Shown one piece after another: positions 18,624 through 54,907 of a stretch of 64,000 nucleotides of DNA (its first letter is position 1; each line of letters begins with the position of its first letter). Made by a program: the position numbers and the translations under genes. Origin of the DNA: a virus (taxonomy: Duplodnaviria > Heunggongvirae > Uroviricota > Caudoviricetes); IMG/VR virus record IMGVR_UViG_3300035184_001394, positions 1 through 64,000 of that record; one strand, given 5' to 3'. The notes below the pieces were generated by a model. The model had not been told where the DNA came from and ran no database searches. It saw only the letters and a program-made list of their open reading frames with translations.

Positions 18624-18680
18624 CGTTTATTATATTTTAATTTATCTGAAATAGTTGTTGACATTTAATAATAACTGTGG
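18601..18680. repeat. 24-bp perfect inverted repeat (promoter -35 + spacer) with a 32-nt loop
   Basis: CCACAGTTATTATTAAATGTCAAC (18601-18624) is the exact reverse complement of GTTGACATTTAATAATAACTGTGG (18657-18680). Confidence 0.95.
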
Positions 18681-30669: not shown

Positions 30670-30921
30670 ATGTTTAATTTTACACTAGGTAACGACAAGT
30701 TTTTAATAGAAATTAATTACATTTCAGGTATACAGAAGCGCTTTTGGGTATACAGTTTTAATATGAGTAATGGAAATGTAAATAATTGCAACTATGTCTC
30801 TGACTTAAACAGACCAATAGATATTTTTGCTGGTGATAAATACGAAAATAAAATAGAATCAATATATCAAATTGGTTATAAACGCGGCCTATTAAGTTTT
30901 TTAAAAGGGAAAAATAAATGA
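30670..30921 (+). CDS. hypothetical protein (83 aa)
   Basis: ORF track; ATGA overlap with the next gene. Confidence 0.45.
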   Translation: MFNFTLGNDKFLIEINYISGIQKRFWVYSFNMSNGNVNNCNYVSDLNRPIDIFAGDKYENKIESIYQIGYKRGLLSFLKGKNK

Positions 30922-31403
30922 GTAATGATTTAGTAAAAGACATTAGTGAAATGCACCAAAAGTTTGGTGTAAACGACTGGTTTGAAAAGAATAAACACGA
31001 CAAAGTATTAATGAAAGAATTCCTTAGATTCCGTATTAACATGTGTCTTGAAGAATTGCTTGAAACAGCAACTGCAGCCAACTTAGTGCTACATACTGAT
31101 ATTCAAGAAGGTCTAGTGTTTAAAGAATCTCAAAACAACGATTTGTGTATTGATTCTGAAGAAGTAGTAGATGGCTTAATCGATCTTTCTGTGTTCGCTA
31201 TTGGTACATTAGACGTGTTTAATGCTGATGCAAACAAAGCTTGGGATGCTGTATACGATGCGAATATGGTTAAAGAATCTGGTGTTAAACCTGGTCGCCC
31301 AAATAAATGGGGTCTTCCTGATATGATAAAACCGAAAATGGAAACACATGGCTACGACTGGGTAGCTCCATCTCATGAAGGTAATCACGGAGATTTTAAA
31401 TGA
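30918..31403 (+). CDS. MazG / PRA-PH-like all-alpha NTP pyrophosphohydrolase
   Basis: FRINMCLEELLE (EExxE-type metal site), VVDGLIDLSVFAIGT (second acidic helix), then ..VYDANMVK...GKP..KP..W..P tail as in MazG-like phage enzymes. Confidence 0.6.
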   Translation: MSNDLVKDISEMHQKFGVNDWFEKNKHDKVLMKEFLRFRINMCLEELLETATAANLVLHTDIQEGLVFKESQNNDLCIDSEEVVDGLIDLSVFAIGTLDVFNADANKAWDAVYDANMVKESGVKPGRPNKWGLPDMIKPKMETHGYDWVAPSHEGNHGDFK

Positions 31404-31681: not shown

Positions 31682-32101
31682 ATGAAATACGATAACGGTA
31701 AAACAGATTTATCATTGATACCACCAGAAGTCTTAGTTGACATTGCGTGTGTATTAGGCTTTGGTGCAAAGAAATATGGTAGGGATAATCACCGCTTTGA
31801 TGCTGGAGAAACTGAATGGAGTAGAGTATATGCTTCAGCCCAACGCCACTTGCATGATTTTTGGTCAGGTGAAGATTTTGACCCAGAATCTGGTCAGAAA
31901 CATATAACACACGCAATTACCCAATTGATTATTCTTGCAACTGCAATTAACGATGGCCATACGAATATGGATGACCGGTTTTTTACAAAATTAAAACAGT
32001 TAAGCACTACAGAAAAACCAAAACCCGACAGTCTCTTAGATACTAAAGCAACTAAACATGCACCCTATGTATATTTAAAGTCTCGGGAGATTATTGAATA
32101 A
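31682..32101 (+). CDS. dNTP diphosphohydrolase-like protein (KYDxGK...FGAxKYG family, MazZ-related N-terminal domain)
   Basis: MKYDNGKTDLSLIPPEVLVDIACVLGFGAKKYGRDN...SAQRHLHDFWSGEDFDPESGQKHITHAI matches the pattern I associate with the dATP/dGTP diphosphohydrolase N-terminal domain family. Confidence 0.5.
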   Translation: MKYDNGKTDLSLIPPEVLVDIACVLGFGAKKYGRDNHRFDAGETEWSRVYASAQRHLHDFWSGEDFDPESGQKHITHAITQLIILATAINDGHTNMDDRFFTKLKQLSTTEKPKPDSLLDTKATKHAPYVYLKSREIIE

Positions 32102-32850
32102 TGATAGTTGAAGATATACGTAAATACTTTAAAGAAGAACTTGCTGCAGAACGTTTCACTATTGATAAAACTGGTGCTAAAACGATCGAGTTGTTAGGTG
32201 CTAGCTTTATTGCTGATGAACCTGCTATTTTTGGTATTCCTAATCAAGAATATATTGATGCTGAAATAAAATGGTACAATAGTTGTTCTACTAATATTAA
32301 TACATTAGAAAAAATTTATGGTAAGAAACCAGCTGCGTGGGCTTACTCAGCAAATTCTTATGGCGAAATCAATTCGAATTATGGTCATCTTTTGTTTGAA
32401 CCAAAGTACTATAATCAATTTGAAAATGCTGTAAAAGAACTAATCAATAACCCTGATAGTAGACGTGCTCAACTAACATACACTAGACCTTCTGTATGGG
32501 TTGATTTTAACGAAAGCGGCAAAAACGATTTCATATGTACTTTAGGTCAACTGTTTTATATACGTGATAATAAATTACATATGGTAAGCATGATGCGAAG
32601 CAACGACTCTTGGGCTGGTTATCGCAATGATTATGCTTGGGCTAAATATCTTATGGAACTCGCTGTTAACGAATACAATGTTGGATGTGAAAATACTCCT
32701 ATTGCTATTGGTAATCTGTATTGGCAAGTAGCCAATATGCACATATATGAAAGAAATTTCTATTTAGTTGATTATTATTCAAAAACAGGTAAATTTCATA
32801 TTTCTAAACCCGACTATGCTGCAAAATATCCGAATAGTCAATATAATTAA
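32101..32850 (+). CDS. 42: deoxycytidylate 5-hydroxymethyltransferase (T4 gp42-like)
   Basis: Collinear with T4 gp42 as recalled: FTIDKTGAKTIELLGASFIADEP.IFG, GEINSNYG, NPDSRR, NDFICT (catalytic Cys), MRSNDSWAGYRNDYAW (Asp of RNDYAW = cytosine-specifying residue), HIYERNFYLVD, GKFHISKPDY. Confidence 0.85.
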   Translation: MIVEDIRKYFKEELAAERFTIDKTGAKTIELLGASFIADEPAIFGIPNQEYIDAEIKWYNSCSTNINTLEKIYGKKPAAWAYSANSYGEINSNYGHLLFEPKYYNQFENAVKELINNPDSRRAQLTYTRPSVWVDFNESGKNDFICTLGQLFYIRDNKLHMVSMMRSNDSWAGYRNDYAWAKYLMELAVNEYNVGCENTPIAIGNLYWQVANMHIYERNFYLVDYYSKTGKFHISKPDYAAKYPNSQYN

Positions 32851-32911: not shown

Positions 32912-33364
32912 ATGTGTGATAAGTGGCATAAACGTTACCTTCATTTAGCAAAGAATATTGCTTCATGGAGCAGAGATCCTTCTCGTAAAATCGGAGCAGT
33001 TGCTATTGGTTCTAAAGGTCAGGTATTAGCTCAAGGTTTCAATGGATTCCCTCGGGGTATTCGAGATACTGAAGAAAGATATAATGACCGCGAGACTAAG
33101 TATAAATATGTCGTACACGCTGAAATGAACTGTATATATAACGCTACGTATAGTGGTGTTAGCCTTGATGGTAGTTCATTATATGTGCATGGTTTACCAG
33201 TTTGTTCTGAATGCGCTAAAGGTATTATTCAAACTGGAATCAAAGAAGTATTTTGGTCTGCTGATGAAGAAATACCAGTAAGATGGTGTGATGCTTATAA
33301 GATAACAAAGAATATGCTTCTAGAAGCTGGCATAAATATAACATATGTAAACATAGGAGAATAA
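32912..33364 (+). CDS. cd: dCMP deaminase
   Basis: Cytidine/deoxycytidylate deaminase zinc motifs VHAEMNCI and PCSECAKGI. Confidence 0.85.
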   Translation: MCDKWHKRYLHLAKNIASWSRDPSRKIGAVAIGSKGQVLAQGFNGFPRGIRDTEERYNDRETKYKYVVHAEMNCIYNATYSGVSLDGSSLYVHGLPVCSECAKGIIQTGIKEVFWSADEEIPVRWCDAYKITKNMLLEAGINITYVNIGE

Positions 33365-33367
33365 AAA

Positions 33368-33730
33368 TTGGAAGATGATTTATTACCAACAATAAGTGCG
33401 GTTATATTACTACCAGAGAGTAGATCTGACGTAACAAGATATGTGTTGATTGGAGATTTTAAATATGCTGGATTTGAAGTTCCAAGTGGGTTTGTGACTG
33501 ACGGTTTGACTATACCAAGGATATTTTGGAGCATACTACCACCCATTCACAGATACTTTCCTGCAGCCATAATTCATGATTATCTATTAACACAAGTATC
33601 TCGCGTAGAAGCTGACAGAGAGTTTAAGATTGTACTGAAAAAGCTAAATATATCTAGAGTGCGTAGATTTTTAATGGCTGCCGCAGTAAGATTATATTCA
33701 ACAATACTAAAAATATTAAATAAAAGTTGA
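33368..33730 (+). CDS. DUF1353-family protein (TTG start)
   Basis: FEVPSGFVTDGLTIPRIFW...AAIIHDYL...EADREF...R..MAAAVRLY fits the DUF1353 pattern. Confidence 0.6.
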   Translation: MEDDLLPTISAVILLPESRSDVTRYVLIGDFKYAGFEVPSGFVTDGLTIPRIFWSILPPIHRYFPAAIIHDYLLTQVSRVEADREFKIVLKKLNISRVRRFLMAAAVRLYSTILKILNKS

Positions 33731-33755
33731 CATTATAATCAACTTGTGATATAGT
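33727..33755 (+). promoter_or_regulatory. early sigma70-type promoter of the six-gene operon
   Basis: TTGACA-17-TATAGT. Followed by an atypical ~80-nt GC-containing leader rather than the standard leader. Confidence 0.65.
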
Positions 33756-33837: not shown

Positions 33838-35118
33838 ATGTCTAAAATTAATATCGCTATTGCCGGCGTCGGTAATTGCTCATCAGCACTTATTCAAGGT
33901 GTAGAATACTATAAAGAAAATCCAGAAGATACCATAGGTCTTATGTTTGAAGACATCGGTGGTTTTTCTGCTAAAAACTTTAATTTTGTTGTTGGATTTG
34001 ATGTCGATGCCCGTAAAGTTGGCCAACGATTAAATAACTCAATCTATGCTAAACCAAATTGTAACATGGAAGTATATCCTCCAAGTCATAATTTGACTTG
34101 TATAGCATCTAAATCGACAGTATACAGATCGCCAACATTTGATGGTATAGCACCTCACATGCACGATTTACATCCTGATATATCCTTCGTAGAAGATACA
34201 GAAACTCTGGCTATCACGGCTAATGAATACATTCAAATTCTTAAAGATAACAAAGTTGATGTATTACTTAACTATATGCCAGTTGGTTCTGAAACAGCAG
34301 CTCGTTGGCACATTGAAAATGCTATTCGCGCAGGTGTCCATATTGTTAACTGTATGCCAACATATATATCTACTAAAGATGCAATGGAACTTGAGAGACT
34401 TGCTATCGAACATGGCGTAACAGTTGTTGGTTCTGACATGCGTTCTGATTACGGCGCGTCACGTTTATCTGAGGTGTTACAAGGTTCAATTATGGATTCT
34501 GGATTGTTGGTTACTCAACACATCCAAGAAAACAAAGCTTGTGGAACTACTCAAGGTGATATGCGCCGTACTGGTCGTACTGCAAATACTGACTTCTTAA
34601 ACATGGCAACTAAAGATCGTTTAAAAAATAAACATATCTCTAAAGAAAATGTTTTAAATGGTCAAGCTGCTGTACGTGGTAAAGATATTGCTGGTCTTAC
34701 AATGTATGCTGGTCCGTCACTTACAGTTTTCCAAAAACCAGGTGATGAATACATTGGTTCAGATAATAAGATTGCTAATATTGATATGGTATTCTGGGGA
34801 TGGGCTGGGGCTCGCTATGAATTGACTGCTCGTTTATCTGTTCAAGATTCTCCTAATAGTGCTGGAATTGTATTTGATGCAGTTCGTTTTTGCAAAGTTG
34901 CTGCTGAGATGGGTATTGTTGGTTACTTACGTGGTCCATCGGCACACTCTCAAAAGACACCACCAACTCAGCTAAAAACTGCTGATTCAAAATTCGAATG
35001 CGAAGCATTAGCTCGTAGGATTTTAACTGATCTTACTCGTCCGCAACTCGCCGAAAATTACCCACAAGTTGAAGATTTGCTTTATACATTCCAAGCTGAT
35101 ACTTCAGATTACGAATAA
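33838..35118 (+). CDS. myo-inositol-1-phosphate synthase family enzyme (bacterial Ino1 type)
   Basis: INIAIAGVGNCSSALIQGVEYY, FVVGFDVDARKVG, VDVLLNYMPVGSE, TDFLNM, RLKNKHISK, LSVQDSPNSAGIVFDAVRFCKVA and KTPPTQL are collinear with actinobacterial Ino1 as recalled. Confidence 0.8.
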   Translation: MSKINIAIAGVGNCSSALIQGVEYYKENPEDTIGLMFEDIGGFSAKNFNFVVGFDVDARKVGQRLNNSIYAKPNCNMEVYPPSHNLTCIASKSTVYRSPTFDGIAPHMHDLHPDISFVEDTETLAITANEYIQILKDNKVDVLLNYMPVGSETAARWHIENAIRAGVHIVNCMPTYISTKDAMELERLAIEHGVTVVGSDMRSDYGASRLSEVLQGSIMDSGLLVTQHIQENKACGTTQGDMRRTGRTANTDFLNMATKDRLKNKHISKENVLNGQAAVRGKDIAGLTMYAGPSLTVFQKPGDEYIGSDNKIANIDMVFWGWAGARYELTARLSVQDSPNSAGIVFDAVRFCKVAAEMGIVGYLRGPSAHSQKTPPTQLKTADSKFECEALARRILTDLTRPQLAENYPQVEDLLYTFQADTSDYE

Positions 35119-35132
35119 AGGAAAAATATATT

Positions 35133-35510
35133 ATGAATACTTTTGATATTGATGGTGTGATTTATATGGGTAAAGACCATGACGGCGTTTACCCTGGGCC
35201 GAACGACTTGATTATTACTGGTCGTTCTATTGAAGAAAAACCAGAAACTATTAGGATGCTGCAGCAGAAAGGGATTAATAATAAAGTTTATTTTAATCCC
35301 TTACCATTTAAACAAAAGACCAGAGAAAGTTCTGGTCACCATAAAGCAGACATCATTTCAGCTCTTATTACATTAGGTTGTCCTATAGATATCCACTTTG
35401 AAGATGATCCAATACAAGCTGATATAATCAAAAAGGTTACATCAATTCACGTTGTATTATTAAACCACAACTTAACTGAAAAGGAGAATATGCGCCATGG
35501 GGGATACTGA
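35133..35510 (+). CDS. HAD-superfamily phosphatase (small, capless)
   Basis: Motif I FDIDGV, motif II IITGRS and motif IV HFEDDP. Confidence 0.55.
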   Translation: MNTFDIDGVIYMGKDHDGVYPGPNDLIITGRSIEEKPETIRMLQQKGINNKVYFNPLPFKQKTRESSGHHKADIISALITLGCPIDIHFEDDPIQADIIKKVTSIHVVLLNHNLTEKENMRHGGY

Positions 35511-36240
35511 AATGTATAAAGGCTATAAAATTAGAACAGGCCCGGGTATTGATCGTGATATGATTCGCGATTCACTAAAACATTATAGCCACTTCTCACT
35601 TGATAAAAAATCAGTAGTGCTTGATCTTGGTTCTAATATTGGTGGATTTACTAGGATGGCAAACGAAAAAGAAGTTAAACAATACATAGCAGTAGAACCA
35701 GATCCAGAAAATATGGAATTAACAACTGTTAATTCCATAGACGGAAGTAATAACTTATATTTGTTGGGTGTAGCCTCTATTTCTGAATCAGAACATTTAA
35801 CGTTTTTTCAATCTAATGCTGTAAGATCAAAATGCTCTGGAACTATTAATAGTAAAAGTCAAACAGCTACTAGAAAGAATGGCACTGCATACGATGTTGT
35901 TAATTATAATGTGTATGAACTGTTGGAAAAATATAAACCTACTCATGTCAAATGTGATATAGAAGGAGCAGAAATTGATTGGTTAGCTGATTGCGAAGGT
36001 ATATTTCCAGACTATATTCAGGAGTTGGCGTTTGAGTTGCATGGTAGAGCTGGTATAGTAGAACTCGAGCGATATTACGATAATATAATTGAACATTTTG
36101 AAATAGTTAGTTTTGTTCCATCTGTTGGGTTTAAAGGCAGTTTTAATAAAAAAGACGCTGTACTGTATGAAAAAGTTGGATATACAACAGAAGGTACTTT
36201 GTGGAGCATAGACTTATTCTTGCGTAGAAGAGTAAAATAA
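35497..36240 (+). CDS. FkbM-family SAM-dependent methyltransferase
   Basis: VVLDLGSNIGGFTRMA (motif I), AVEPDPENMELT and HVKCDIEGAEIDWL (FkbM signature iDvEG.E). An alternative start exists at 35512. Confidence 0.7.
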   Translation: MGDTEMYKGYKIRTGPGIDRDMIRDSLKHYSHFSLDKKSVVLDLGSNIGGFTRMANEKEVKQYIAVEPDPENMELTTVNSIDGSNNLYLLGVASISESEHLTFFQSNAVRSKCSGTINSKSQTATRKNGTAYDVVNYNVYELLEKYKPTHVKCDIEGAEIDWLADCEGIFPDYIQELAFELHGRAGIVELERYYDNIIEHFEIVSFVPSVGFKGSFNKKDAVLYEKVGYTTEGTLWSIDLFLRRRVK

Positions 36241-37406
36241 TGATTGATGGTACACATAAATCATACGAAGTACCTAAAGGATTTAAATCTGCTGACTCAA
36301 ATTATCCACTGGATAAATATTTTGATTTGTGCGACGTTGAGAAATTTCTTGACTTTAAATATTTTGTATGCGAAGTTAATAAGAGATCGGAATGGCAAAG
36401 GGGTCTTATTACAACATACGATTATAAAGAGTATGCTCTTAATCCAAATACAGAATACTTTCATCCGATGATTACATACGACGATCGTATGGTTTATATC
36501 GCTGAAAATATAGTAGGATTATCAAGCGACACTTTATCTCTACACAATAAGATTGGTAACACAATTATATCTCACTTCTATGGAGCTAGAGGTATTCACC
36601 AGATTGCCACTCGTAATAATGACGTTAAAACTGCTCATGTTGATTTTGAAAACTATTTTACTACTGACGAGCGCTCTCGTATACGAGAAAATTTAAAACT
36701 TTCAAAAATTGCTGGTTTGCCTATATATGGTTCTACTGAATTGCGTACTTCTCTCTGGGGTGCTGCAAACAAATATCAACAAAGCCGTTTTAATGTTACA
36801 ACCGAAGAAGAAAGAAAGCACCCTGGAAATATTATGGATTGGGTAGCTGGTTTATGCGAAGATGGAACTTTTGATCGTTTAATTAGTTGTAATTCTATTA
36901 AAGAAGCATTTAATGAACTCACTTCTAACGCTGGTATTGGAAGTTATTATGGATTCCATTGTGCTACTTCAAATTCAGTAAACCCTGAGTTGAACTGGAC
37001 TAATGATGATAACTTCGTTAAACCTGGACCTGGTGCTCAATATACTTTAAAGTTGATGTTTCCAAACGCAACAAATAAGTTAATTAACAGTGGCGATCTT
37101 GTTATATGGTTTAGACACAATCAAAAGTTCTTTGGTTTTGGCGATATTGAAATCCATGAATCTGCTCATAATATTTTAAATTTTGAAGGCAAAAAGATTC
37201 TTGAAAAAGATCAAACCGAAATGATGACTTATGGTTCTGAGGTTGCTATGTGCCAATATGGTATTTTTTGTAAGTTGCGCGAAGATAAAAAAGCTTGCGA
37301 TAGACGTAAAGTTGCCCGTATAGGAGATAGAAACATTGAAAAAATGCTAAATATGGCTGAGCAAGAACAAATTTCTCAAGCAGCATTTCAACAATTTTTT
37401 ACATGA
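36240..37406 (+). CDS. alpha-glutamyl/putrescinyl-thymine pyrophosphorylase (aGPT-Pplase)-like putative DNA base hypermodification protein
   Basis: NAGIGSYYGFHCATSNSVNPELNWTNDDNFVKPGPGAQYTL resembles the G.G.F.AYE...DL......D...W...GPGAQRG block I recall from this family. Based on memory only, so tentative. Confidence 0.4.
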   Translation: MIDGTHKSYEVPKGFKSADSNYPLDKYFDLCDVEKFLDFKYFVCEVNKRSEWQRGLITTYDYKEYALNPNTEYFHPMITYDDRMVYIAENIVGLSSDTLSLHNKIGNTIISHFYGARGIHQIATRNNDVKTAHVDFENYFTTDERSRIRENLKLSKIAGLPIYGSTELRTSLWGAANKYQQSRFNVTTEEERKHPGNIMDWVAGLCEDGTFDRLISCNSIKEAFNELTSNAGIGSYYGFHCATSNSVNPELNWTNDDNFVKPGPGAQYTLKLMFPNATNKLINSGDLVIWFRHNQKFFGFGDIEIHESAHNILNFEGKKILEKDQTEMMTYGSEVAMCQYGIFCKLREDKKACDRRKVARIGDRNIEKMLNMAEQEQISQAAFQQFFT

Positions 37407-37413
37407 GGTAAAT

Positions 37414-38517
37414 ATGAAAACAATTATAGCAGCACCATTCATCCCTATGTCGTTTCAGATAACGAGTCATAGGGCAGCACAAGGAATTATATATGCTGAT
37501 TTGCTTAAACACTATCACACAGACGATATTTCAGTAAGCTTATCTAGACCAAGCGTACAAGGTCCCGAAGCTAAAGAATCAAACAAAACAGAAGATTTTA
37601 ACGAATATGATAGATTATATATCTATCATGGTAATGATCGTAAAGCAGACGCTGGTGATCTAAACTTTTTTGGTGGAACTCGAAATTTCCCTCATGCTTA
37701 CAATATTAGAAATATTTCTAAATTTAAAGGTGAAGTTTATTCTATTGGATATGATATGCCTGATTATGCTACTATGTTAGAGCACAAGATTACTGGCCAT
37801 GAAAAGCGAGATGGTACACTTGACACAATGGTTCCTGAATTTCTCGAAGTTGATATTGATAATTTAAGAGCAATGCAAGAAAGAGCGATCACAATTATAC
37901 CACAACATCCTAGTTGGAGCGGTTTAGTGATCGGTGATAGTCATGCTATTTGTATGTATCGTGAAGGATATAATGTTAATTCAGTTCCGTTTAAAACTTT
38001 GTATGGAGCCTTAGAATTAGGCTTAAAAAGTTTCATAAATAAAAATGACATTAAGGATATTGAATGTTACTTTGGTAACATTGATATACGTCATCACATT
38101 TGTAGACAGGACGATCATAAACAAGCTATTAGAGATCTTGTTGATCGTTATGTCGACCAAGTCGATTCTTTGGATATGGAAAGTAAAGTGATCTATGAAC
38201 TATTACCTATCGAAAACGAACGCAGAAATCTTCCAAAAAGCGGATGGTATCTTGGTGAGAAATTTCATGGTACGTGGGCTGAGCGTAACGCAGCAAGACT
38301 TTACTTTAAAGAATACTCAATGAAAAGAGTTCAAGGAACGAGTGTTGAATTTCGTGAATGGCTCACTCCATCGTATTATAATGAATTAGGTGAACTTGAT
38401 TTTAAAGCTATGGAGCGACCAAAATCAGTTCATTTATCTCGTGAATACTATCCTCATTGGCAAGGACTTGAATACAATAAAATTAATAAAACAACAATTG
38501 AGGATTTTTTTCAATGA
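37414..38517 (+). CDS. two-domain protein: unknown N-terminal domain + SGNH/GDSL-hydrolase-like C-terminal domain
   Basis: GLVIGDSHAICMY (GDS block I) at residue ~170 and a later GNIDIRHH. The N-terminal 170 aa have no recognised motif. Confidence 0.35.
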   Translation: MKTIIAAPFIPMSFQITSHRAAQGIIYADLLKHYHTDDISVSLSRPSVQGPEAKESNKTEDFNEYDRLYIYHGNDRKADAGDLNFFGGTRNFPHAYNIRNISKFKGEVYSIGYDMPDYATMLEHKITGHEKRDGTLDTMVPEFLEVDIDNLRAMQERAITIIPQHPSWSGLVIGDSHAICMYREGYNVNSVPFKTLYGALELGLKSFINKNDIKDIECYFGNIDIRHHICRQDDHKQAIRDLVDRYVDQVDSLDMESKVIYELLPIENERRNLPKSGWYLGEKFHGTWAERNAARLYFKEYSMKRVQGTSVEFREWLTPSYYNELGELDFKAMERPKSVHLSREYYPHWQGLEYNKINKTTIEDFFQ

Positions 38518-39740
38518 AGCACGCAACGATCATACCACTTATAGGAGGCGAAGCACTAGCATCTACTGAAGTATTTGGAACTAAACCAGAATACATTTTG
38601 TCTTATAAAGGATTTGAAAACAATGAAAAACACTTACTAAACTATTGGAATAACGAAGTACCCTATCATGTACTTGACGATGAGAACAGTATTGCTCCTA
38701 AAAATATTAATGAGAAAGTTGATGTTATATCGAGTGTCTGTCCTTGTGCTGGATTAAGTCAATATCATTCTAAACACGGAGCTGAAAATCAAAATAACCA
38801 ATGGATGGAGAAAACAGCCAAGCATATTCTAGAAACCGTACAACCGAGTGTATTTTGGGGAGAAAATGCTCCTGCTCTTGTTGGTAAGATCGGTGAGTTT
38901 ATGTTAACTAAACTACGTAAAATTGGCCTCGATAATGGATACTCTATGGGTCTATATCTTACTAAGAATATTAAACATGGTATTCCACAATTTCGTAAAC
39001 GCACTTTCTATTTCTTCTGGAAGAAAAGCGAGTTTGGTGATACTGCACCAATGCTTAAATTTATTAACAAAGAACACACAAAAATTGAAGATGTAATTAT
39101 GAGCGCTACTGGTAGTACACAGTTAGAACCAATTAATTCTAAAATTCCAAGCAAAGACGATCCTTACTATAGATATCTTCTTGAAGTAATTCATGGTGGT
39201 ATTACGCATAGAGAATATTTTGAGTTATTAAAAACTAAAAATGTTCGAGGCAACGATGTAGAATCTATTATTATAAATTCAGGTCACGATTATATGATGG
39301 TTGGTGAATGGATGGAAAAAAATGGATACGACAGAGAAGTTCCAAAATGTGAACGAAAATATCATAAGCTAAAAGATGGTGGCAATATAATGCGACGTGG
39401 CACTATTATTCCTAAAGATTATATTGGAGCTTTTGTTGGTCATTATCCGACAGTTCTTACTCATCCATATGAAGATCGTTATATTAATTATCGCGAAGCA
39501 ATGACTATTATGGGATTACCACAAGATTACGAATTGTTAGACCCTAAAAAATCTGCTAATCATATTTGTCAGAATGTTCCATTACAAACTGCTAAAGATA
39601 TGGTGTTAGAAATTAAAGCTGTTTTCGAAGGAAAGCGCCAATTTTCTGATACTGATTTTTTATTACAATCTAACATAAACGAAACATCCAGAACTTTGAA
39701 TATACCAGATAAAGAGCAAAGTTTAGAATCATTTTTCTGA
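38514..39740 (+). CDS. DNA (cytosine-5) methyltransferase-fold enzyme
   Basis: Motif I-like IIPLIGGE, motif IV SSVCPCAGLSQ (PC dipeptide), motif VI GENAPAL, motif VIII IPQFRKRTFYF and motif X CQNVPLQTA. ATGA overlap with the upstream gene. Confidence 0.7.
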   Translation: MKHATIIPLIGGEALASTEVFGTKPEYILSYKGFENNEKHLLNYWNNEVPYHVLDDENSIAPKNINEKVDVISSVCPCAGLSQYHSKHGAENQNNQWMEKTAKHILETVQPSVFWGENAPALVGKIGEFMLTKLRKIGLDNGYSMGLYLTKNIKHGIPQFRKRTFYFFWKKSEFGDTAPMLKFINKEHTKIEDVIMSATGSTQLEPINSKIPSKDDPYYRYLLEVIHGGITHREYFELLKTKNVRGNDVESIIINSGHDYMMVGEWMEKNGYDREVPKCERKYHKLKDGGNIMRRGTIIPKDYIGAFVGHYPTVLTHPYEDRYINYREAMTIMGLPQDYELLDPKKSANHICQNVPLQTAKDMVLEIKAVFEGKRQFSDTDFLLQSNINETSRTLNIPDKEQSLESFF

Positions 39741-39748
39741 AATGATTG

Positions 39749-39777
39749 TTGACATTTAAACACAAACATGTTATAAT
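39749..39777 (+). promoter_or_regulatory. early sigma70-type promoter
   Basis: TTGACA-17-TATAAT. Confidence 0.75.
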
Positions 39778-53492: not shown

Positions 53493-54907
53493 TGATTGAA
53501 TCTGGAATTGGAATACGTAATCCACTTTTTTTTATGGGTGTTGTTGAGCGTAATGATGATCCAAGACTCGAAGGAAGAGTTCAAGTACGTGCGTTTAGTG
53601 TTCATGGAAAAAACCATCAAAACGAAGTACCTACCACTGATCTTCCGTGGGCTGTGTGTGTAGCTGGTAATTACAGTCCAAACAACCCACCACCAAAGCT
53701 AAATTCGTTTGTTTATGGAATGTTTTTAGATGGAAGAGATGCTCAGCACCCTCTTATACTTGGTTTAATACCAACACAATTTGCAGAAGTTATTGATCCA
53801 GCAAAAAATGGTTGGGGAGTAATACCCGATAAAGATGGTAATGTTTCAGCGCATGGTTCTTCTCCTAGGGATTTTGGTAGTCCACAGAATTCAAATCTAG
53901 CACGTGGCGAAAATCTTAATGATACATATATAGAATCGCAAGAATTAAATAGAGTATTAGGATCGAGGATTGCTGGTACAGATGAAACTTGGGACGAACC
54001 TCCTACGGCGTATGCTGCACAATATCCTTATAATAAAGTTGTTGAAACTGCTAAACATTCAGTAGAGATTGATGATACACCAGGTGCTGAAAGAATCATG
54101 ATTCATCATGATTCAGGTTCGTATATTCAAATGGATTCATCTGGCAGTGTATCATATAAATCAATGAAAGATACCTCAGATGTTCGTCTTGAAAATGAAA
54201 GTATATATGTTGGTGGAAAAAGTATTGTCCATATAAACGGCGACAGCCACGTATACGTACATGGAAATAAAACAGAAGAAGTTAACGGTGATTATCGTTT
54301 ATTAGTGAAAGGTAACGCCGAATTTGGCGTTGGTGGTCAAATGAACTTAAACGCTGGCGATCAGATTCAGGCTCGTGCTGCTGATATTAAATTAGATGCT
54401 AATGTATCAACACTAACAATTAAAGCAAAAAAGAATATTCATATCGGATCTGATGAAACAATATTAATGCACACAAATTTCATGAATCAAACAGCACTTC
54501 TCAATTTTGACACGTTTGTGGGTTTTGATTATAATTTAACATCAGGTAGAGATTGTATAACATCATCAAGTAATATATTTGCGACTGCCAATGGATCAAT
54601 GCCGAGTGAAACTATTGCTGGCAGTGTTGGTATTCATCTAAAAAGCTTAACAGCACCAATAAATTTAGATTCTAGTACAGTTGTAAGCATGAAAGCTCCA
54701 ACTGTTAATATGGATAGTGTAATTAATCTTGCAAGTGGGTTTAGTTCATCAGCAAGTGCAGCAATACAAATATTACCAACTTTTAAACCAAGTCCAGCTA
54801 TTATGCCTCAGCCACCAACAAAATCAACATCATTAACACAGCACAAGAAATCGGGTACTTCGTCAGTTAGCGGTTTAAGCGGCGTGTTTGATGATAAATT
54901 AAAATAG
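53492..54907 (+). CDS. 5: baseplate central spike gp5-like (OB-fold + beta-helix, no lysozyme domain)
   Basis: N-terminal FFMGVVERNDDPRLEGRVQVRAFSVHG...DLPWAVCV (gp5/VgrG OB domain). YPYNKVVETAKHSVEIDDTPGAERIMIHHDSGSYIQMD. Repetitive beta-helix VHINGDSHVYVHGNKTEEVNGDYRLLVKGNAEFGVGG. Confidence 0.7.
   Translation: MIESGIGIRNPLFFMGVVERNDDPRLEGRVQVRAFSVHGKNHQNEVPTTDLPWAVCVAGNYSPNNPPPKLNSFVYGMFLDGRDAQHPLILGLIPTQFAEVIDPAKNGWGVIPDKDGNVSAHGSSPRDFGSPQNSNLARGENLNDTYIESQELNRVLGSRIAGTDETWDEPPTAYAAQYPYNKVVETAKHSVEIDDTPGAERIMIHHDSGSYIQMDSSGSVSYKSMKDTSDVRLENESIYVGGKSIVHINGDSHVYVHGNKTEEVNGDYRLLVKGNAEFGVGGQMNLNAGDQIQARAADIKLDANVSTLTIKAKKNIHIGSDETILMHTNFMNQTALLNFDTFVGFDYNLTSGRDCITSSSNIFATANGSMPSETIAGSVGIHLKSLTAPINLDSSTVVSMKAPTVNMDSVINLASGFSSSASAAIQILPTFKPSPAIMPQPPTKSTSLTQHKKSGTSSVSGLSGVFDDKLK

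What the first reader, a model, noticed from the sequence alone, without database searches (positions are those of the whole stretch)
33838..36240. Phage-encoded cyclitol module: Ino1-type inositol-phosphate synthase + HAD phosphatase + FkbM methyltransferase
Seen: ORF 33838-35118 is collinear with bacterial Ino1 (GVGNCSS..QGVEYY, DVDARKVG, YMPVGSE, DFLNM, DSPNSAGI..DAVR, KTPP.QL). Around the DFLNM block (..QENKACGTTQGDMRRTGRTANTDFLNM) it looks longer and different from the Ino1 sequence as I recall it. It is followed by a minimal HAD phosphatase (FDIDGV / ITGRS / FEDDP) and an FkbM-type methyltransferase (LDLGSNIGG, DIEGAE). Established: MIPS plus a phosphatase yields myo-inositol from glucose-6-phosphate. 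MIPS-family orthologues can also make other cyclitol phosphates; one example makes the five-membered carbocycle of a carbocyclic nucleoside antibiotic pathway. Inference: the phage makes a free and probably O-methylated cyclitol early in infection. I am not aware of this trio in a phage. Its purpose is open: a DNA adduct, a nucleoside analogue, a compatible solute or a lipid head group.
Basis: partly seen in the sequence, partly recalled or inferred. Interest (0 to 1): 0.65.

Follow-up and report, generated by a model that had tools for sequence, protein, structure and literature searches.

The report
Phage inositol-making gene pair
A T4-like phage carries an early-expressed gene pair, an inositol-phosphate synthase and a small dedicated phosphatase, that should make free inositol from host glucose-6-phosphate; in every phage lineage examined the pair sits among genes that chemically modify phage DNA, which hints at an untested link between a cyclitol and DNA modification.

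Summary
The three ORFs and all quoted motifs are real. ORF 33838-35118 is an Ino1-type synthase. It matches M. tuberculosis Ino1 at E=3e-48, and its NAD-binding and catalytic Lys/Asp/Ser residues are invariant in 117-118 of 118 homologues. The extra segment before DFLNM is a 15-residue insertion shared by a whole subfamily, including homologues in bacterial gene contexts, so it is not a phage novelty.

ORF 35133-35510 is a capless HAD phosphatase with all four motifs invariant. Its predicted fold is closest to polynucleotide 3'-phosphatases. It follows Ino1 in 49 of 49 evaluable viral loci and occurs in exactly the same 19 of 50,697 phage records as Ino1.

The FkbM methyltransferase is real but optional: 9 of 29 complete clusters have it, at three positions. 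The conserved unit is therefore a pair, not a trio.

The pair opens an early operon with three putative DNA-modification genes, downstream of a T4 gp42-type dCMP hydroxymethylase. Elsewhere the pair sits inside TET/JBP-ADDT, 5-hmdU-kinase or DpdA/QueC clusters.

Best reading: the pair makes free myo-inositol early in infection. Its use is inferred, most plausibly as a building block for DNA hypermodification or as an anti-defence function. No functional study was found.

The parts
33727..33755 (+). Early sigma-70-type promoter of the Ino1 operon (TTGACA-N17-TATAGT with an extended -10 TG)
   Evidence: 11 of 12 consensus positions plus TG, in the 108-bp gap before Ino1 (sequence); 20 perfect TTGACA-N16-18-TATAAT sites in the window against 0.13 expected, 19 of them on the strand of the adjacent genes. 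This is the pattern of T4-type early promoters.
33838..35118 (+). Ino1-type myo-inositol-phosphate synthase homologue (426 aa), long-insert subfamily
   Evidence: for homology. for the alignment and the insertions. D200, S203, N250, D252, K265, K269, K311, D337, S338 and K373 are invariant in 117-118 of 118 homologues. for clade placement.
35133..35510 (+). Capless (C0) HAD-superfamily phosphatase (125 aa), the obligate partner of Ino1
35497..36240 (+). FkbM-family SAM-dependent methyltransferase (247 aa), an optional cluster member
   Evidence: above the curated cut-offs; present in 9 of 29 complete clusters, in the gene orders I-J-K-L-M-N, I-J-L-K-M-N and M-I-J-K-L-N.
36240..37406 (+). Protein L (388 aa), an all-alpha protein with a 5-hmdU-DNA-kinase helical domain and no kinase domain detected
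   Evidence: Pfam HMUDK_hel at 2.4e-12; conserved motifs GIGxYYGxH, PGPGA and E..CQ; fused to M in Aeromonas phages 31 and 44RR2.8t.
37414..38517 (+). Protein M (367 aa): an N-terminal alpha/beta domain of unknown type plus a C-terminal SGNH/GDSL esterase/acyltransferase-like domain
38514..39740 (+). Protein N (408 aa), a C5-cytosine DNA methyltransferase homologue and the last gene of the unit
   Evidence: Pfam DNA_methylase at 5e-21; conserved with I-J-L-M. The next perfect early promoter lies at 39749-39777.
32101..32850 (+). T4 gp42-type deoxycytidylate 5-hydroxymethyltransferase (249 aa), upstream context
   Evidence: PDB 1b49 (T4 dCMP hydroxymethylase) E=6.6e-71 over the full length; 772 phage records hold a homologue.
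32912..33364 (+). dCMP deaminase (150 aa), upstream context
30918..31403 (+). Candidate MazG/PRA-PH-type NTP pyrophosphohydrolase (161 aa); a dCTPase role like that of T4 gp56 is inferred only
   Evidence: No family matched this window ORF itself (NCBIfam). The assignment rests on its homologues in L043, L054 and L055, which carry Pfam PRA-PH. Homologues lie near the pair in 5 lineages.

Best explanation
What it is. The core is a two-gene module, not a trio.

How it most likely works:
1. An Ino1-type, NAD-dependent synthase cyclises host glucose-6-phosphate to inositol-3-phosphate.
2. A dedicated 125-residue capless HAD phosphatase, always encoded next to the synthase, releases free myo-inositol.

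Shown: both proteins keep every catalytic residue of their families. The pair is the first two genes of an early transcription unit, Ino1-HAD-FkbM-L-M-N. That unit sits just downstream of a T4 gp42-type dCMP hydroxymethylase in a T4-like myophage.

Inferred: hosts of the cultured relatives (Stenotrophomonas, Caulobacter, Ralstonia) are, from general knowledge, not inositol producers. A phage that needs free inositol there must bring both enzymes.

Inferred use, the weakest step: the cyclitol is a building block for the DNA hypermodification made by the neighbouring genes. It could serve as a hydroxyl nucleophile or decoration on 5-hydroxymethylpyrimidine. FkbM, where present, would add an O-methyl group.
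For: Enzymes:
- Ino1 homology and collinearity with M. tuberculosis Ino1.
- The lysines and other residues that carry out MIPS catalysis (role described in PMC11348189) are invariant in 117-118 of 118 homologues.
- Homologues 62-65% identical sit in bacterial gene contexts.
- Two different Ino1 subfamilies (long-insert; Moby/Cr30 type, 41-42% identical) pair with the same HAD family (46-57% identical). This argues that the shared canonical activity is what is selected.
- HAD motifs are invariant and the fold is confirmed.

Coupling of the pair:
- HAD lies downstream of Ino1 in 49 of 49 evaluable loci, median gap 14 bp.
- Both genes occur in the same 19 of 50,697 phage records.
- They are the only two gene families shared by all 10 lineages compared.

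Expression: an early promoter lies at 33727 and the next at 39749. The genes between them overlap or lie 7-14 bp apart.

Context. DNA-modification genes flank the pair in every viral lineage examined:
- gp42-type hydroxymethylase, L, M and N.
- TET/JBP plus ADDT in Cr30 and L056.
- An ADDT-like gene, HMUDK_hel and HMUD2 in RP13.
- An L homologue, a GT4 glycosyltransferase and a C5-methyltransferase in L057.
- DpdA, QueC and QueE in Moby, L051 and L052.

Chemical precedent: the ADDT enzyme ViI gp247 links a hydroxyl (serine O) to the 5-methylene of a pyrimidine in DNA (PMC8989533).
Against: - No activity or product has been measured for any phage member.
- The NCBIfam equivalog model for Ino1 is far from met (198.6 bits against a cut-off of 638). 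The protein lies in a clade separate from characterised Ino1.
- No gene for activating inositol (nucleotidyltransferase or kinase) and no obvious inositol transferase is present.
- L/M occur without Ino1 in Aeromonas phages. Ino1/HAD occur without L/M or ADDT in the three 7-deazaguanine lineages. The pair is therefore not tied to one modification chemistry.
- In the DpdA/QueC clusters there is no evident way to attach a cyclitol.
- The association could reflect a shared accessory or anti-defence hot spot in T4-like genomes. Acb1 and NAMPT also lie nearby.
- The nearest structural relatives of the HAD act on nucleic-acid 3'-phosphates.
Confidence: 0.5

Rival explanations
1. The pair makes free myo-inositol, or drains glucose-6-phosphate, as a soluble effector unrelated to DNA chemistry. 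It could be an anti-defence or host-takeover function. It lies next to DNA-modification genes only because both kinds of cargo collect in the same accessory or anti-defence region of T4-like genomes.
For: - Known anti-defence genes lie nearby: Acb1 in RP13 and L057, and NAMPT plus a PRPP-synthetase-like gene in L056.
- The pair occurs with at least four unrelated modification chemistries, and only Ino1 and HAD are shared.
- No inositol transferase or activating enzyme was found.
- The DpdA/QueC clusters offer no attachment chemistry.
Against: - No defence system or host process known to me responds to inositol.
- The pair sits inside the modification clusters, not merely beside them: between FolE and QueC, between DpdA and QueC, and heading the L-M-N operon.
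- Draining G6P would seem costly during nucleotide synthesis (inference).
Confidence: 0.25
2. The synthase is neofunctionalised. It uses another sugar phosphate, or closes a different ring as Ari2 does. The pair would then supply a non-inositol cyclitol, for example a carbocyclic sugar mimic for a nucleoside analogue or base decoration.
For: - The protein falls in a clade that excludes characterised Ino1 (NJ bootstrap 96/100).
- It scores far below the Ino1 equivalog cut-off.
- The long-insert subfamily has a 15-residue insertion next to the N.DF motif, near the stretch that PMC11348189 describes as a helical domain at the active-site entrance (the placement relative to that domain is my inference).
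- Bacterial members sit in capsule/EPS loci rather than lipid loci.
- Ari2 shows that the family can make a five-membered ring (PMC11348189).
Against: - Every residue shared by Ino1 and needed for G6P chemistry is conserved, including the K373 (KTPP) region.
- The protein is closer to M. tuberculosis Ino1 (E=3e-48) than to Ari2 (E=2e-27).
- Subfamilies with and without the insertion pair with the same HAD, which suggests a common product.
- None of the additional enzymes needed for a carbocyclic nucleoside is present.
Confidence: 0.12
3. One reading: synthase, phosphatase and FkbM form one pathway whose end product is a free O-methyl-inositol (as in ononitol or pinitol).
For: - The three genes are contiguous and translationally coupled in the window and in L055.
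- FkbM-family enzymes are typically O-methyltransferases of ring or sugar hydroxyls (background knowledge).
- FkbM, when present, is always inside this cluster.
Against: - FkbM is absent from 20 of 29 complete clusters and from Moby, Cr30, RP13, L051, L052, L056 and L057.
- In five loci it lies after L rather than after HAD.
- Its substrate could equally be a group already on DNA.
Confidence: 0.08
4. The small HAD is a nucleic-acid or nucleotide 3'-phosphatase, like the phosphatase domain of polynucleotide kinase. It would not work on the product of Ino1.
For: - PHROG match to polynucleotide kinase at 3e-6.
- Capless HADs often act on macromolecules (background knowledge).
- Some GenBank records name it polynucleotide kinase.
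Against: - Strict adjacency (49 of 49 loci) and identical phyletic distribution with Ino1.
- There is no kinase domain.
- Inositol-3-phosphate, like a 3'-nucleotide, is a phosphate on a secondary ring alcohol, so the fold similarity fits both substrates (inference).
Confidence: 0.05

Closest known systems
Bacterial Ino1 / myo-inositol-3-phosphate synthase (M. tuberculosis Rv0046c, PDB 1gr0)
   Same: Collinear over 380 residues (E=2.7e-48, about 37% identity). Same NAD-binding GxGxxxS and DVD..K motifs. Same catalytic D, S, N.D, K..SK, D.K, DSPNSAG and K(T/S)PP residues.
   Different: - Sits in a separate clade.
- Has 15- and roughly 9-residue insertions and a longer C-terminus.
- Scores below the equivalog cut-off.
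- Is encoded by a phage and paired with a HAD phosphatase. I know of no such pairing for cellular Ino1, and none was seen next to the bacterial-context homologues L045, L048, L050 and L053.
Ari2, the five-membered cyclitol-phosphate synthase of aristeromycin biosynthesis (PDB 6k96)
   Same: Same fold and family, and the same lysine/aspartate core.
   Different: More distant (E=2.1e-27, about 33% identity). Ari2 differs at several motif positions where the phage enzyme agrees with Ino1: DLHPNK, PTGLQ, GDDLAS, NEDFRNL. None of the other aristeromycin pathway genes is present.
Annotated Ino1 genes of cultured phages (Caulobacter phage Cr30, Stenotrophomonas Menderavirus such as Moby/Mendera/Ps15, Ralstonia phage RP13)
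   Same: Homologues at 38-73% identity, each with the same small HAD gene next to or near it.
   Different: In those records the HAD is 'hypothetical', 'polynucleotide kinase' or 'phosphoribosyltransferase'. The only comment found in the papers calls the synthase a bacteria-like gene (PMC9025141). No function, pairing or link to DNA-modification clusters is described in the papers searched.
Phage pyrimidine hypermodification pathways (5-hmdU DNA kinase plus amino acid:DNA transferase; Lee et al. 2018 and 2021, PMC5889632 and PMC8989533)
   Same: Neighbour L carries the HMUDK helical domain. Relatives carry ADDT, HMUD2 and TET/JBP next to the pair. The concept is the same: a hydroxymethylpyrimidine in DNA is activated and then decorated.
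   Different: No P-loop kinase or ADDT lies in the window cluster. The partner of L is an SGNH-fold protein. The hydroxymethyl base is made by a gp42-type dCMP hydroxymethylase, so it is hmC rather than hmU. Known donors are amino acids or polyamines; no cyclitol donor has been described.
T4 hmC pathway (gp42 dCMP hydroxymethylase followed by glucosyltransferases)
   Same: A gp42 homologue about 50% identical over the full length, in a T4-like replication and structural gene set.
   Different: No alpha- or beta-glucosyltransferase match was found among the cluster proteins. The place downstream of the hydroxymethylase is taken by Ino1-HAD-(FkbM)-L-M-N.

Membership tests
myo-Inositol-phosphate synthase (MIPS/Ino1, EC 5.5.1.4) | N-terminal Rossmann NAD-binding motif (GxGxxxS) and the downstream acidic residue motif (DVD..K) | tested here: met
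   G10, G12, C14, D55, D57 and K60 are conserved in 117-118 of 118 homologues and match M. tuberculosis Ino1.
myo-Inositol-phosphate synthase (MIPS/Ino1, EC 5.5.1.4) | Catalytic lysine network and Asp/Ser/Asn residues of the active site | tested here: met
   D200, S203, N250, D252, K265, K269, K311, D337, S338 and K373 are invariant or nearly so. The role of the lysines is described in PMC11348189.
myo-Inositol-phosphate synthase (MIPS/Ino1, EC 5.5.1.4) | Curated family thresholds | tested here: inconclusive
   Pfam PF01658 scores 32.8 bits, above its cut-off of 27. The Pfam NAD-binding domain model gave no hit. The NCBIfam equivalog TIGR03450 scores 198.6 bits, far below its cut-off of 638.
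myo-Inositol-phosphate synthase (MIPS/Ino1, EC 5.5.1.4) | Conversion of glucose-6-phosphate to inositol-3-phosphate | not testable with these tools
   Needs an enzyme assay.
Ari2-type five-membered cyclitol-phosphate synthase | Closer relationship to Ari2 than to Ino1 | tested here: not met
   E=2.1e-27 and 33% identity to Ari2, against E=2.7e-48 and 37% to Ino1. The motifs follow Ino1 where the two differ.
HAD-superfamily phosphatase | Four catalytic motifs: DxDx(T/V), S/T, K/R, (D/E)D | tested here: met
   D5-x-D7-G-V, T29, K71 and D91-D92 are invariant in 29 and in 56 sequences.
HAD-superfamily phosphatase | Rossmannoid HAD fold | tested here: met
HAD-superfamily phosphatase | Curated family threshold | tested here: not met
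   No Pfam or NCBIfam family reaches its cut-off. Weak Acid_phosphat_B hits occur in 8 of 29 members, the best at 3.6e-6.
HAD-superfamily phosphatase | Substrate is inositol monophosphate | not testable with these tools
   Inferred only, from strict adjacency and co-occurrence with Ino1.
FkbM-family methyltransferase | Curated family thresholds | tested here: met
   TIGR01444 scores 57.5 bits against a cut-off of 37.7. PF05050 scores 28.7 against 22.7.
Proposed 'cyclitol trio' (Ino1 + HAD + FkbM as one conserved module) | All three genes conserved together | tested here: not met
   FkbM is in 9 of 29 complete clusters, at three positions. It is absent from all cultured-phage relatives.
5-hmdU DNA kinase / ADDT thymidine hypermodification system | P-loop 5-hmdU DNA kinase plus amino acid:DNA transferase | tested here: not met
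   In the window only the HMUDK helical domain is present, in L. M is an SGNH-fold protein. hhalign finds no link from L to the Cr30 ADDT or the RP13 HMUD2. ADDT and HMUD2 do occur next to the pair in Cr30, L056 and RP13.
T4-type hmC nucleotide pathway | gp42-type dCMP hydroxymethylase | tested here: met
   PDB 1b49 at E=6.6e-71 over residues 1-243.

The most novel reading that the evidence does not exclude
Free myo-inositol made by the phage, O-methylated where FkbM is present, is covalently attached to a modified base in phage DNA. The most plausible form is an ether on the 5-hydroxymethyl carbon of hmC or hmU, formed by the neighbouring L/M or ADDT-type enzymes. This would be a cyclitol DNA hypermodification. 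It would be isobaric with glucosyl-hmC but would not be a glycoside.
Probability: 0.22. Interest if true: 0.9.

Novelty: new variant of a known kind. Interest (0 to 1): 0.6.

Why it matters
If the pair makes inositol for DNA, it would add a new chemical class, a cyclitol, to the known phage DNA decorations (sugars, amino acids, polyamines, deazapurines). It would also be another case in which a phage encodes the biosynthesis of its own modification donor. Such a non-glycosidic, glucose-isobaric adduct could escape glycosylase- and glucosyl-hmC-directed defences, and mass-only screens could have missed it.

If the product is instead a soluble effector, it would point to an unknown role for inositol in infection of bacteria that, from general knowledge, do not make it.

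Either way the question can be tested directly. Three cultured phage groups carry the pair: Cr30 on Caulobacter, Moby/Mendera on Stenotrophomonas and RP13 on Ralstonia. The environmental relatives look abundant: 39 IMG/VR loci were recovered, and thousands of metagenomic proteins match.

Tried and rejected
- Source contig. Exact look-ups of the window's Ino1 and M proteins found nothing on record. Megablast of the region against phage records found nothing.
- Cellular relatives. The one genome-contig scan, run with a single protein, reached only four close relatives, so broad cellular neighbourhoods could not be surveyed. Bacterial context came from three look-ups instead.
- 7-deazaguanine link in the window. 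tblastn with FolE, QueC, QueD, QueE and DpdA from Moby, L051 and L052 found no homologue in the 64 kb.
- M as a T4 beta-glucosyltransferase relative, a resemblance I recalled from memory. There are no sequence hits to any PDB chain, and the model is an SGNH fold. Rejected.
- L as a relative of ADDT or HMUD2. hhalign probabilities were below 1%. Rejected at this sensitivity.
- L against PDB sequences: nothing significant.
- HAD profile against PDB sequences: nothing significant. Only the fold search identified relatives.
- The insertion as a phage-specific novelty. Rejected: it is shared with bacterial-context homologues.
- Literature. Eight searches on phage Ino1, inositol with DNA modification, and related topics found no functional study, only a passing mention.
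- The N-terminal domain of M could not be assigned. Both fold searches were dominated by the SGNH domain.
Full report
**1. Observation**

All quoted motifs are present in the translations.

The synthase:
- It matches M. tuberculosis Ino1 (1gr0) at E=2.7e-48 over residues 3-382.
- It matches the five-membered cyclitol-phosphate synthase Ari2 (6k96) at E=2.1e-27.
- It matches a Thermotoga MIPS-related protein weakly.
- Pfam Inos-1-P_synth is above its cut-off.
- The NCBIfam Ino1 equivalog model is far below its cut-off, 198.6 against 638 bits.

The methyltransferase passes both the NCBIfam and the Pfam FkbM thresholds.

The small protein passes no curated threshold. However, its four HAD motifs (D5-x-D7, T29, K71, D91-D92) are invariant across 29 and 56 homologues. 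A confident model (pLDDT 93) is a capless HAD fold. Its nearest solved structures are the Pnkp1 and T4 polynucleotide-kinase 3'-phosphatase domains, class B/C acid phosphatases and MDP-1.

**2. The 'different' segment near DFLNM**

Relative to M. tuberculosis Ino1 and Ari2, the window protein has a 15-residue insertion just before N250-T-D252-F-L-N-M. A second insertion of about 9 residues lies further on.

Both insertions are also present in:
- Ralstonia phage RP13 (73% identical);
- two other T4-like phage contigs;
- 62-65% identical proteins that sit in bacterial gene contexts.

The bacterial contexts are:
- Sediminibacterium-type MAG contigs, next to glycosyltransferase, CapD-like, UDP-glucose dehydrogenase, Wzi and Wza genes;
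- a contig binned as Leptospirales, next to homoserine dehydrogenase and threonine synthase.

Among 89 full-length 50%-identity representatives of the family that I aligned (70 tabulated), only the representative of this clade (P0361) has the insertion. It is a subfamily trait and not evidence of phage-specific neofunctionalisation.

The residues that matter are conserved. D200, S203, N250, D252, K265, K269, K311, D337, S338, K373 and the NAD motif are invariant in 117-118 of 118 homologues. They correspond to the lysine network and acidic residues that carry out MIPS catalysis (PMC11348189).

**3. Phylogenetic place**

I built a neighbour-joining tree of 100 sequences: 89 representatives, the phage and bacterial homologues, M. 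tuberculosis Ino1, and Ari2 as outgroup.
- One clade (bootstrap 96/100) holds the long-insert group, the Moby-type and Cr30-type phage proteins, and ten other representatives. It excludes M. tuberculosis Ino1 and the bulk of the family.
- The long-insert group itself has bootstrap 100/100.
- One member of the wider clade lies on a 266-kb contig with XRN, XPG, ankyrin and RNR genes. That contig looks like a giant virus.

**4. The conserved unit is a pair**

- In 49 of 49 viral loci with enough sequence downstream, a homologue of the HAD follows Ino1. The median gap is 14 bp and the largest is 5.5 kb.
- Among 50,697 phage records, Ino1 homologues and HAD homologues occur in exactly the same 19 records: 16 Stenotrophomonas Menderavirus-type records, 2 Cr30 records and RP13.
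- In an all-against-all comparison of ten lineages, Ino1 and HAD are the only families present in all ten.
- The HAD is as well or better conserved than Ino1 across subfamilies. Window against Cr30 is 57% for HAD and 38-41% for Ino1.
- Two distinct Ino1 subfamilies pair with one HAD family. This argues that their common activity is what is selected.

The bacterial-context homologues have no such HAD next to them.

FkbM is present in only 9 of 29 complete clusters. It occurs in the gene orders I-J-K-L-M-N, I-J-L-K-M-N and M-I-J-K-L-N, and it is nearly absent from phage records. It is an optional tailoring member of the larger cluster.

**5. Surroundings in the window**

The window comes from a T4-like myophage. 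It encodes homologues of the T4 replication, recombination and baseplate proteins gp43, gp46/47, topoisomerase II, gp45, gp44, gp32, UvsX, gp5, gp6, gp7, gp8 and gp48. Close relatives also carry ribosomal protein S21, Cpn10, ThyX and a gp41-type helicase.

Promoters:
- The window holds 20 perfect TTGACA-N16-18-TATAAT sites against 0.13 expected. Nineteen lie on the strand of the adjacent genes. This is the pattern of T4-type early promoters.
- An 11/12 match with an extended -10 TG lies at 33727-33755, 83 bp before the Ino1 start codon.
- The next perfect site is at 39749.
- The genes between the two overlap or lie 7-14 bp apart.

Ino1-HAD-FkbM-L-M-N is therefore most probably one early transcription unit.

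Upstream lie three relevant genes:
- A T4 gp42-type dCMP hydroxymethylase (PDB 1b49, E=6.6e-71). The phage therefore makes hydroxymethyl-dCMP.
- A dCMP deaminase.
- A candidate MazG/PRA-PH-type pyrophosphohydrolase. This assignment rests on its homologues in related loci.

The operon partners:
- L carries the helical domain of 5-hmdU DNA kinases but no kinase domain.
- M models confidently (pLDDT 91). It has an N-terminal alpha/beta domain plus an SGNH/GDSL esterase/acyltransferase fold with an invariant GDSH serine.
- L and M are fused into one 795-aa protein in Aeromonas phages 31 and 44RR2.8t.
- N is a C5-cytosine methyltransferase homologue.
- The order I-J-L-M-N is kept down to 60% Ino1 identity.

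**6. Surroundings elsewhere**

In every viral lineage I examined, the pair sits within or beside DNA base-modification genes.

| Lineage | Modification genes next to the pair |
|---|---|
| Window, L043, L054, L055 | gp42-type hydroxymethylase, L, M, N (with or without FkbM) |
| L057 | M-like, Ino1, AAA, L, GT4 glycosyltransferase, HAD, C5-methyltransferase; Acb1 nearby |
| RP13 | ADDT-like ORF118, HMUDK_hel ORF120 (3e-47), Ino1, HAD, Acb1, HMUD2 kinase |
| Cr30 | TET/JBP dioxygenase (annotated 'SNF2'; Pfam 8e-21), ADDT (1e-52), a weak TAGT-like gene, Ino1, HAD, P-loop kinase |
| L056 | NAMPT, TET/JBP, ADDT-like, Ino1, HAD, P-loop kinase, NT5C |
| Moby | FolE, Ino1, HAD, QueC, DpdA, QueE |
| L051 | denV, Ino1, HAD, QueC, DpdA, QueE |
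| L052 | QueD, FolE, DpdA, Ino1, HAD, QueC |

The window itself has no 7-deazaguanine genes.

**7. Mechanism**

Shown by sequence and predicted structure:
- a synthase with an intact Ino1 active site;
- a phosphatase with an intact HAD active site;
- strict coupling of the two genes;
- a promoter arrangement that indicates early co-transcription with DNA-modification genes.

Inferred: G6P is converted to inositol-3-phosphate and then to free myo-inositol. The need for the free polyol would explain the obligate phosphatase. The need for both genes would follow from hosts that lack inositol synthesis (background knowledge).

The use of the product is the weakest step. I favour supply of a cyclitol for DNA hypermodification, for three reasons:
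- The pair lies inside modification clusters.
- The five lineage groups with hydroxymethylpyrimidine-type clusters (the first five rows of the table) all carry hydroxymethylpyrimidine-recognising or transferase components.
- An ADDT enzyme is known to form a C-O link from a hydroxyl to the 5-methylene of a pyrimidine (ViI gp247, PMC8989533).

Against this:
- No inositol-activating or obvious inositol-transferring enzyme is present.
- L/M and Ino1/HAD occur independently of each other.
- The three DpdA/QueC contexts offer no attachment chemistry.
- Known anti-defence genes (Acb1, NAMPT) share the neighbourhood. A common accessory hot spot, with a soluble-effector role for inositol, remains a serious rival.

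**8. Comparison and novelty**

Ino1 genes are already annotated in Cr30, the Menderavirus phages and RP13. One paper mentions the gene as bacteria-like (PMC9025141). In the searches on phage Ino1 and inositol I found no functional study, no description of the dedicated HAD partner, and no link to DNA-modification clusters.

The enzyme is a new member of a known family. The module (Ino1 plus an obligate capless HAD in phage DNA-hypermodification islands) is a new variant of a known kind. A cyclitol on DNA would be categorically new, but it is unproven.

**9. Verdict**

- Confidence that the pair makes free inositol: about 0.7.
- Confidence in the whole best explanation as stated: about 0.5.
- Confidence that the cyclitol ends up on DNA: about 0.2-0.3.
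- Interest: 0.6. The context is surprising, and cultured phages make it directly testable.

Noticed in passing
window, whole (e.g. 3624, 4400, 6068, 7710, 8134, 9229, 11361, 11611, 15168, 18009, 25327, 28488 on -; 18658, 29688, 29789, 31610, 32854, 39749, 41303, 54507 on +): The window holds 20 perfect TTGACA-N16-18-TATAAT sites against 0.13 expected. Most begin TTGACATTT, and 19 lie on the strand of the adjacent genes. This looks like a set of very strong T4-type early promoters that could map the early transcription units. Two of them are atypical: the one at 54507 lies inside a baseplate-hub gene, and the + strand one at 18658 lies between - strand genes.
   Followed up: partly
window 36240-38517; L046 3819-6206 (Aeromonas phage 31 ORF233c): Proteins M (SGNH fold plus an unknown N-terminal domain) and L (5-hmdU-kinase helical domain without a kinase) are separate genes here. 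In Aeromonas phages 31 and 44RR2.8t they are fused in the order M-L into one 795-aa protein. Those phages lack Ino1/HAD, and Aeromonas phages as a group include gp42 carriers. The pair may be an uncharacterised enzyme acting on hydroxymethylcytosine in DNA, perhaps an O-acyl transfer.
   Followed up: partly
window 38514-39740: A C5-cytosine DNA methyltransferase homologue (PC and ENA motifs present) is conserved in the same operon of a phage that also makes hydroxymethyl-dCMP. If cytosine is fully replaced, its substrate is unclear.
   Followed up: no
L003 1706-3034 (Caulobacter phage Cr30, AGS81014.1): The gene annotated 'putative SNF2 DNA repair protein' matches Pfam Tet_JBP (8.4e-21, 74 bits). 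It lies beside an ADDT amino acid:DNA transferase (1.3e-52). Cr30 therefore probably hypermodifies cytosine through a TET-type route, which its record does not say.
   Followed up: partly
L001 (Ralstonia phage RP13) 2808-4580, 4915-5889, 12631-13221, 13279-14535: RP13 ORF118 is similar to the Cr30 ADDT. ORF120 is a full HMUDK_hel protein (3e-47), ORF132 matches Acb1 (anti-CBASS, 8.7e-15) and ORF133 matches HMUD2 (1.4e-13). All are annotated as hypothetical. Together they look like a DNA-hypermodification and anti-defence island around Ino1/HAD.
   Followed up: partly
L056 248-4179: A PRPP-synthetase-like gene and a NAMPT gene lie just upstream of the TET/ADDT/Ino1/HAD cluster. They resemble an NAD+ salvage pathway of the kind used against NAD-depleting defences.
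   Followed up: no
L045, L048, L053 (Sediminibacterium-type MAG contigs): Bacterial homologues of the long-insert Ino1 (62-65% identical) sit in capsule/exopolysaccharide loci, with GT1/GT4, CapD-like, Bac_transf, Wzi, Wza and UDP-glucose dehydrogenase genes. They are not next to inositol-lipid genes. This may point to inositol, or another cyclitol, in a polysaccharide.
   Followed up: no
L050 against L051: The Ino1 on a contig binned as Leptospirales, with bacterial housekeeping neighbours, is 80% identical to that of a 120-kb T4-like phage contig binned as Caldisericales. This suggests recent phage-bacterium exchange, or mis-binning.
   Followed up: no
L058 7001-8182 (266-kb contig, 31% GC): An Ino1 of the same wider clade lies on a contig with XRN exonuclease, XPG/FEN1, ankyrin-repeat, RNR and thymidine kinase genes. 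The contig is probably from a giant virus of eukaryotes. No HAD partner is next to it.
   Followed up: partly
window 33368-33730: A DUF1353 protein (PHROG label 'tail assembly chaperone') lies between the dCMP deaminase and the Ino1 promoter. This slot is variable in relatives: DUF6552 or about 1.3 kb of other genes.
   Followed up: no
window 31682-32101: A protein with the N-terminal domain of dATP/dGTP diphosphohydrolases (1.9e-27) lies directly before, and overlaps, the dCMP hydroxymethylase gene. A homologue lies near the Cr30 cluster. Its nucleotide target in an hmC phage is unknown.
   Followed up: no
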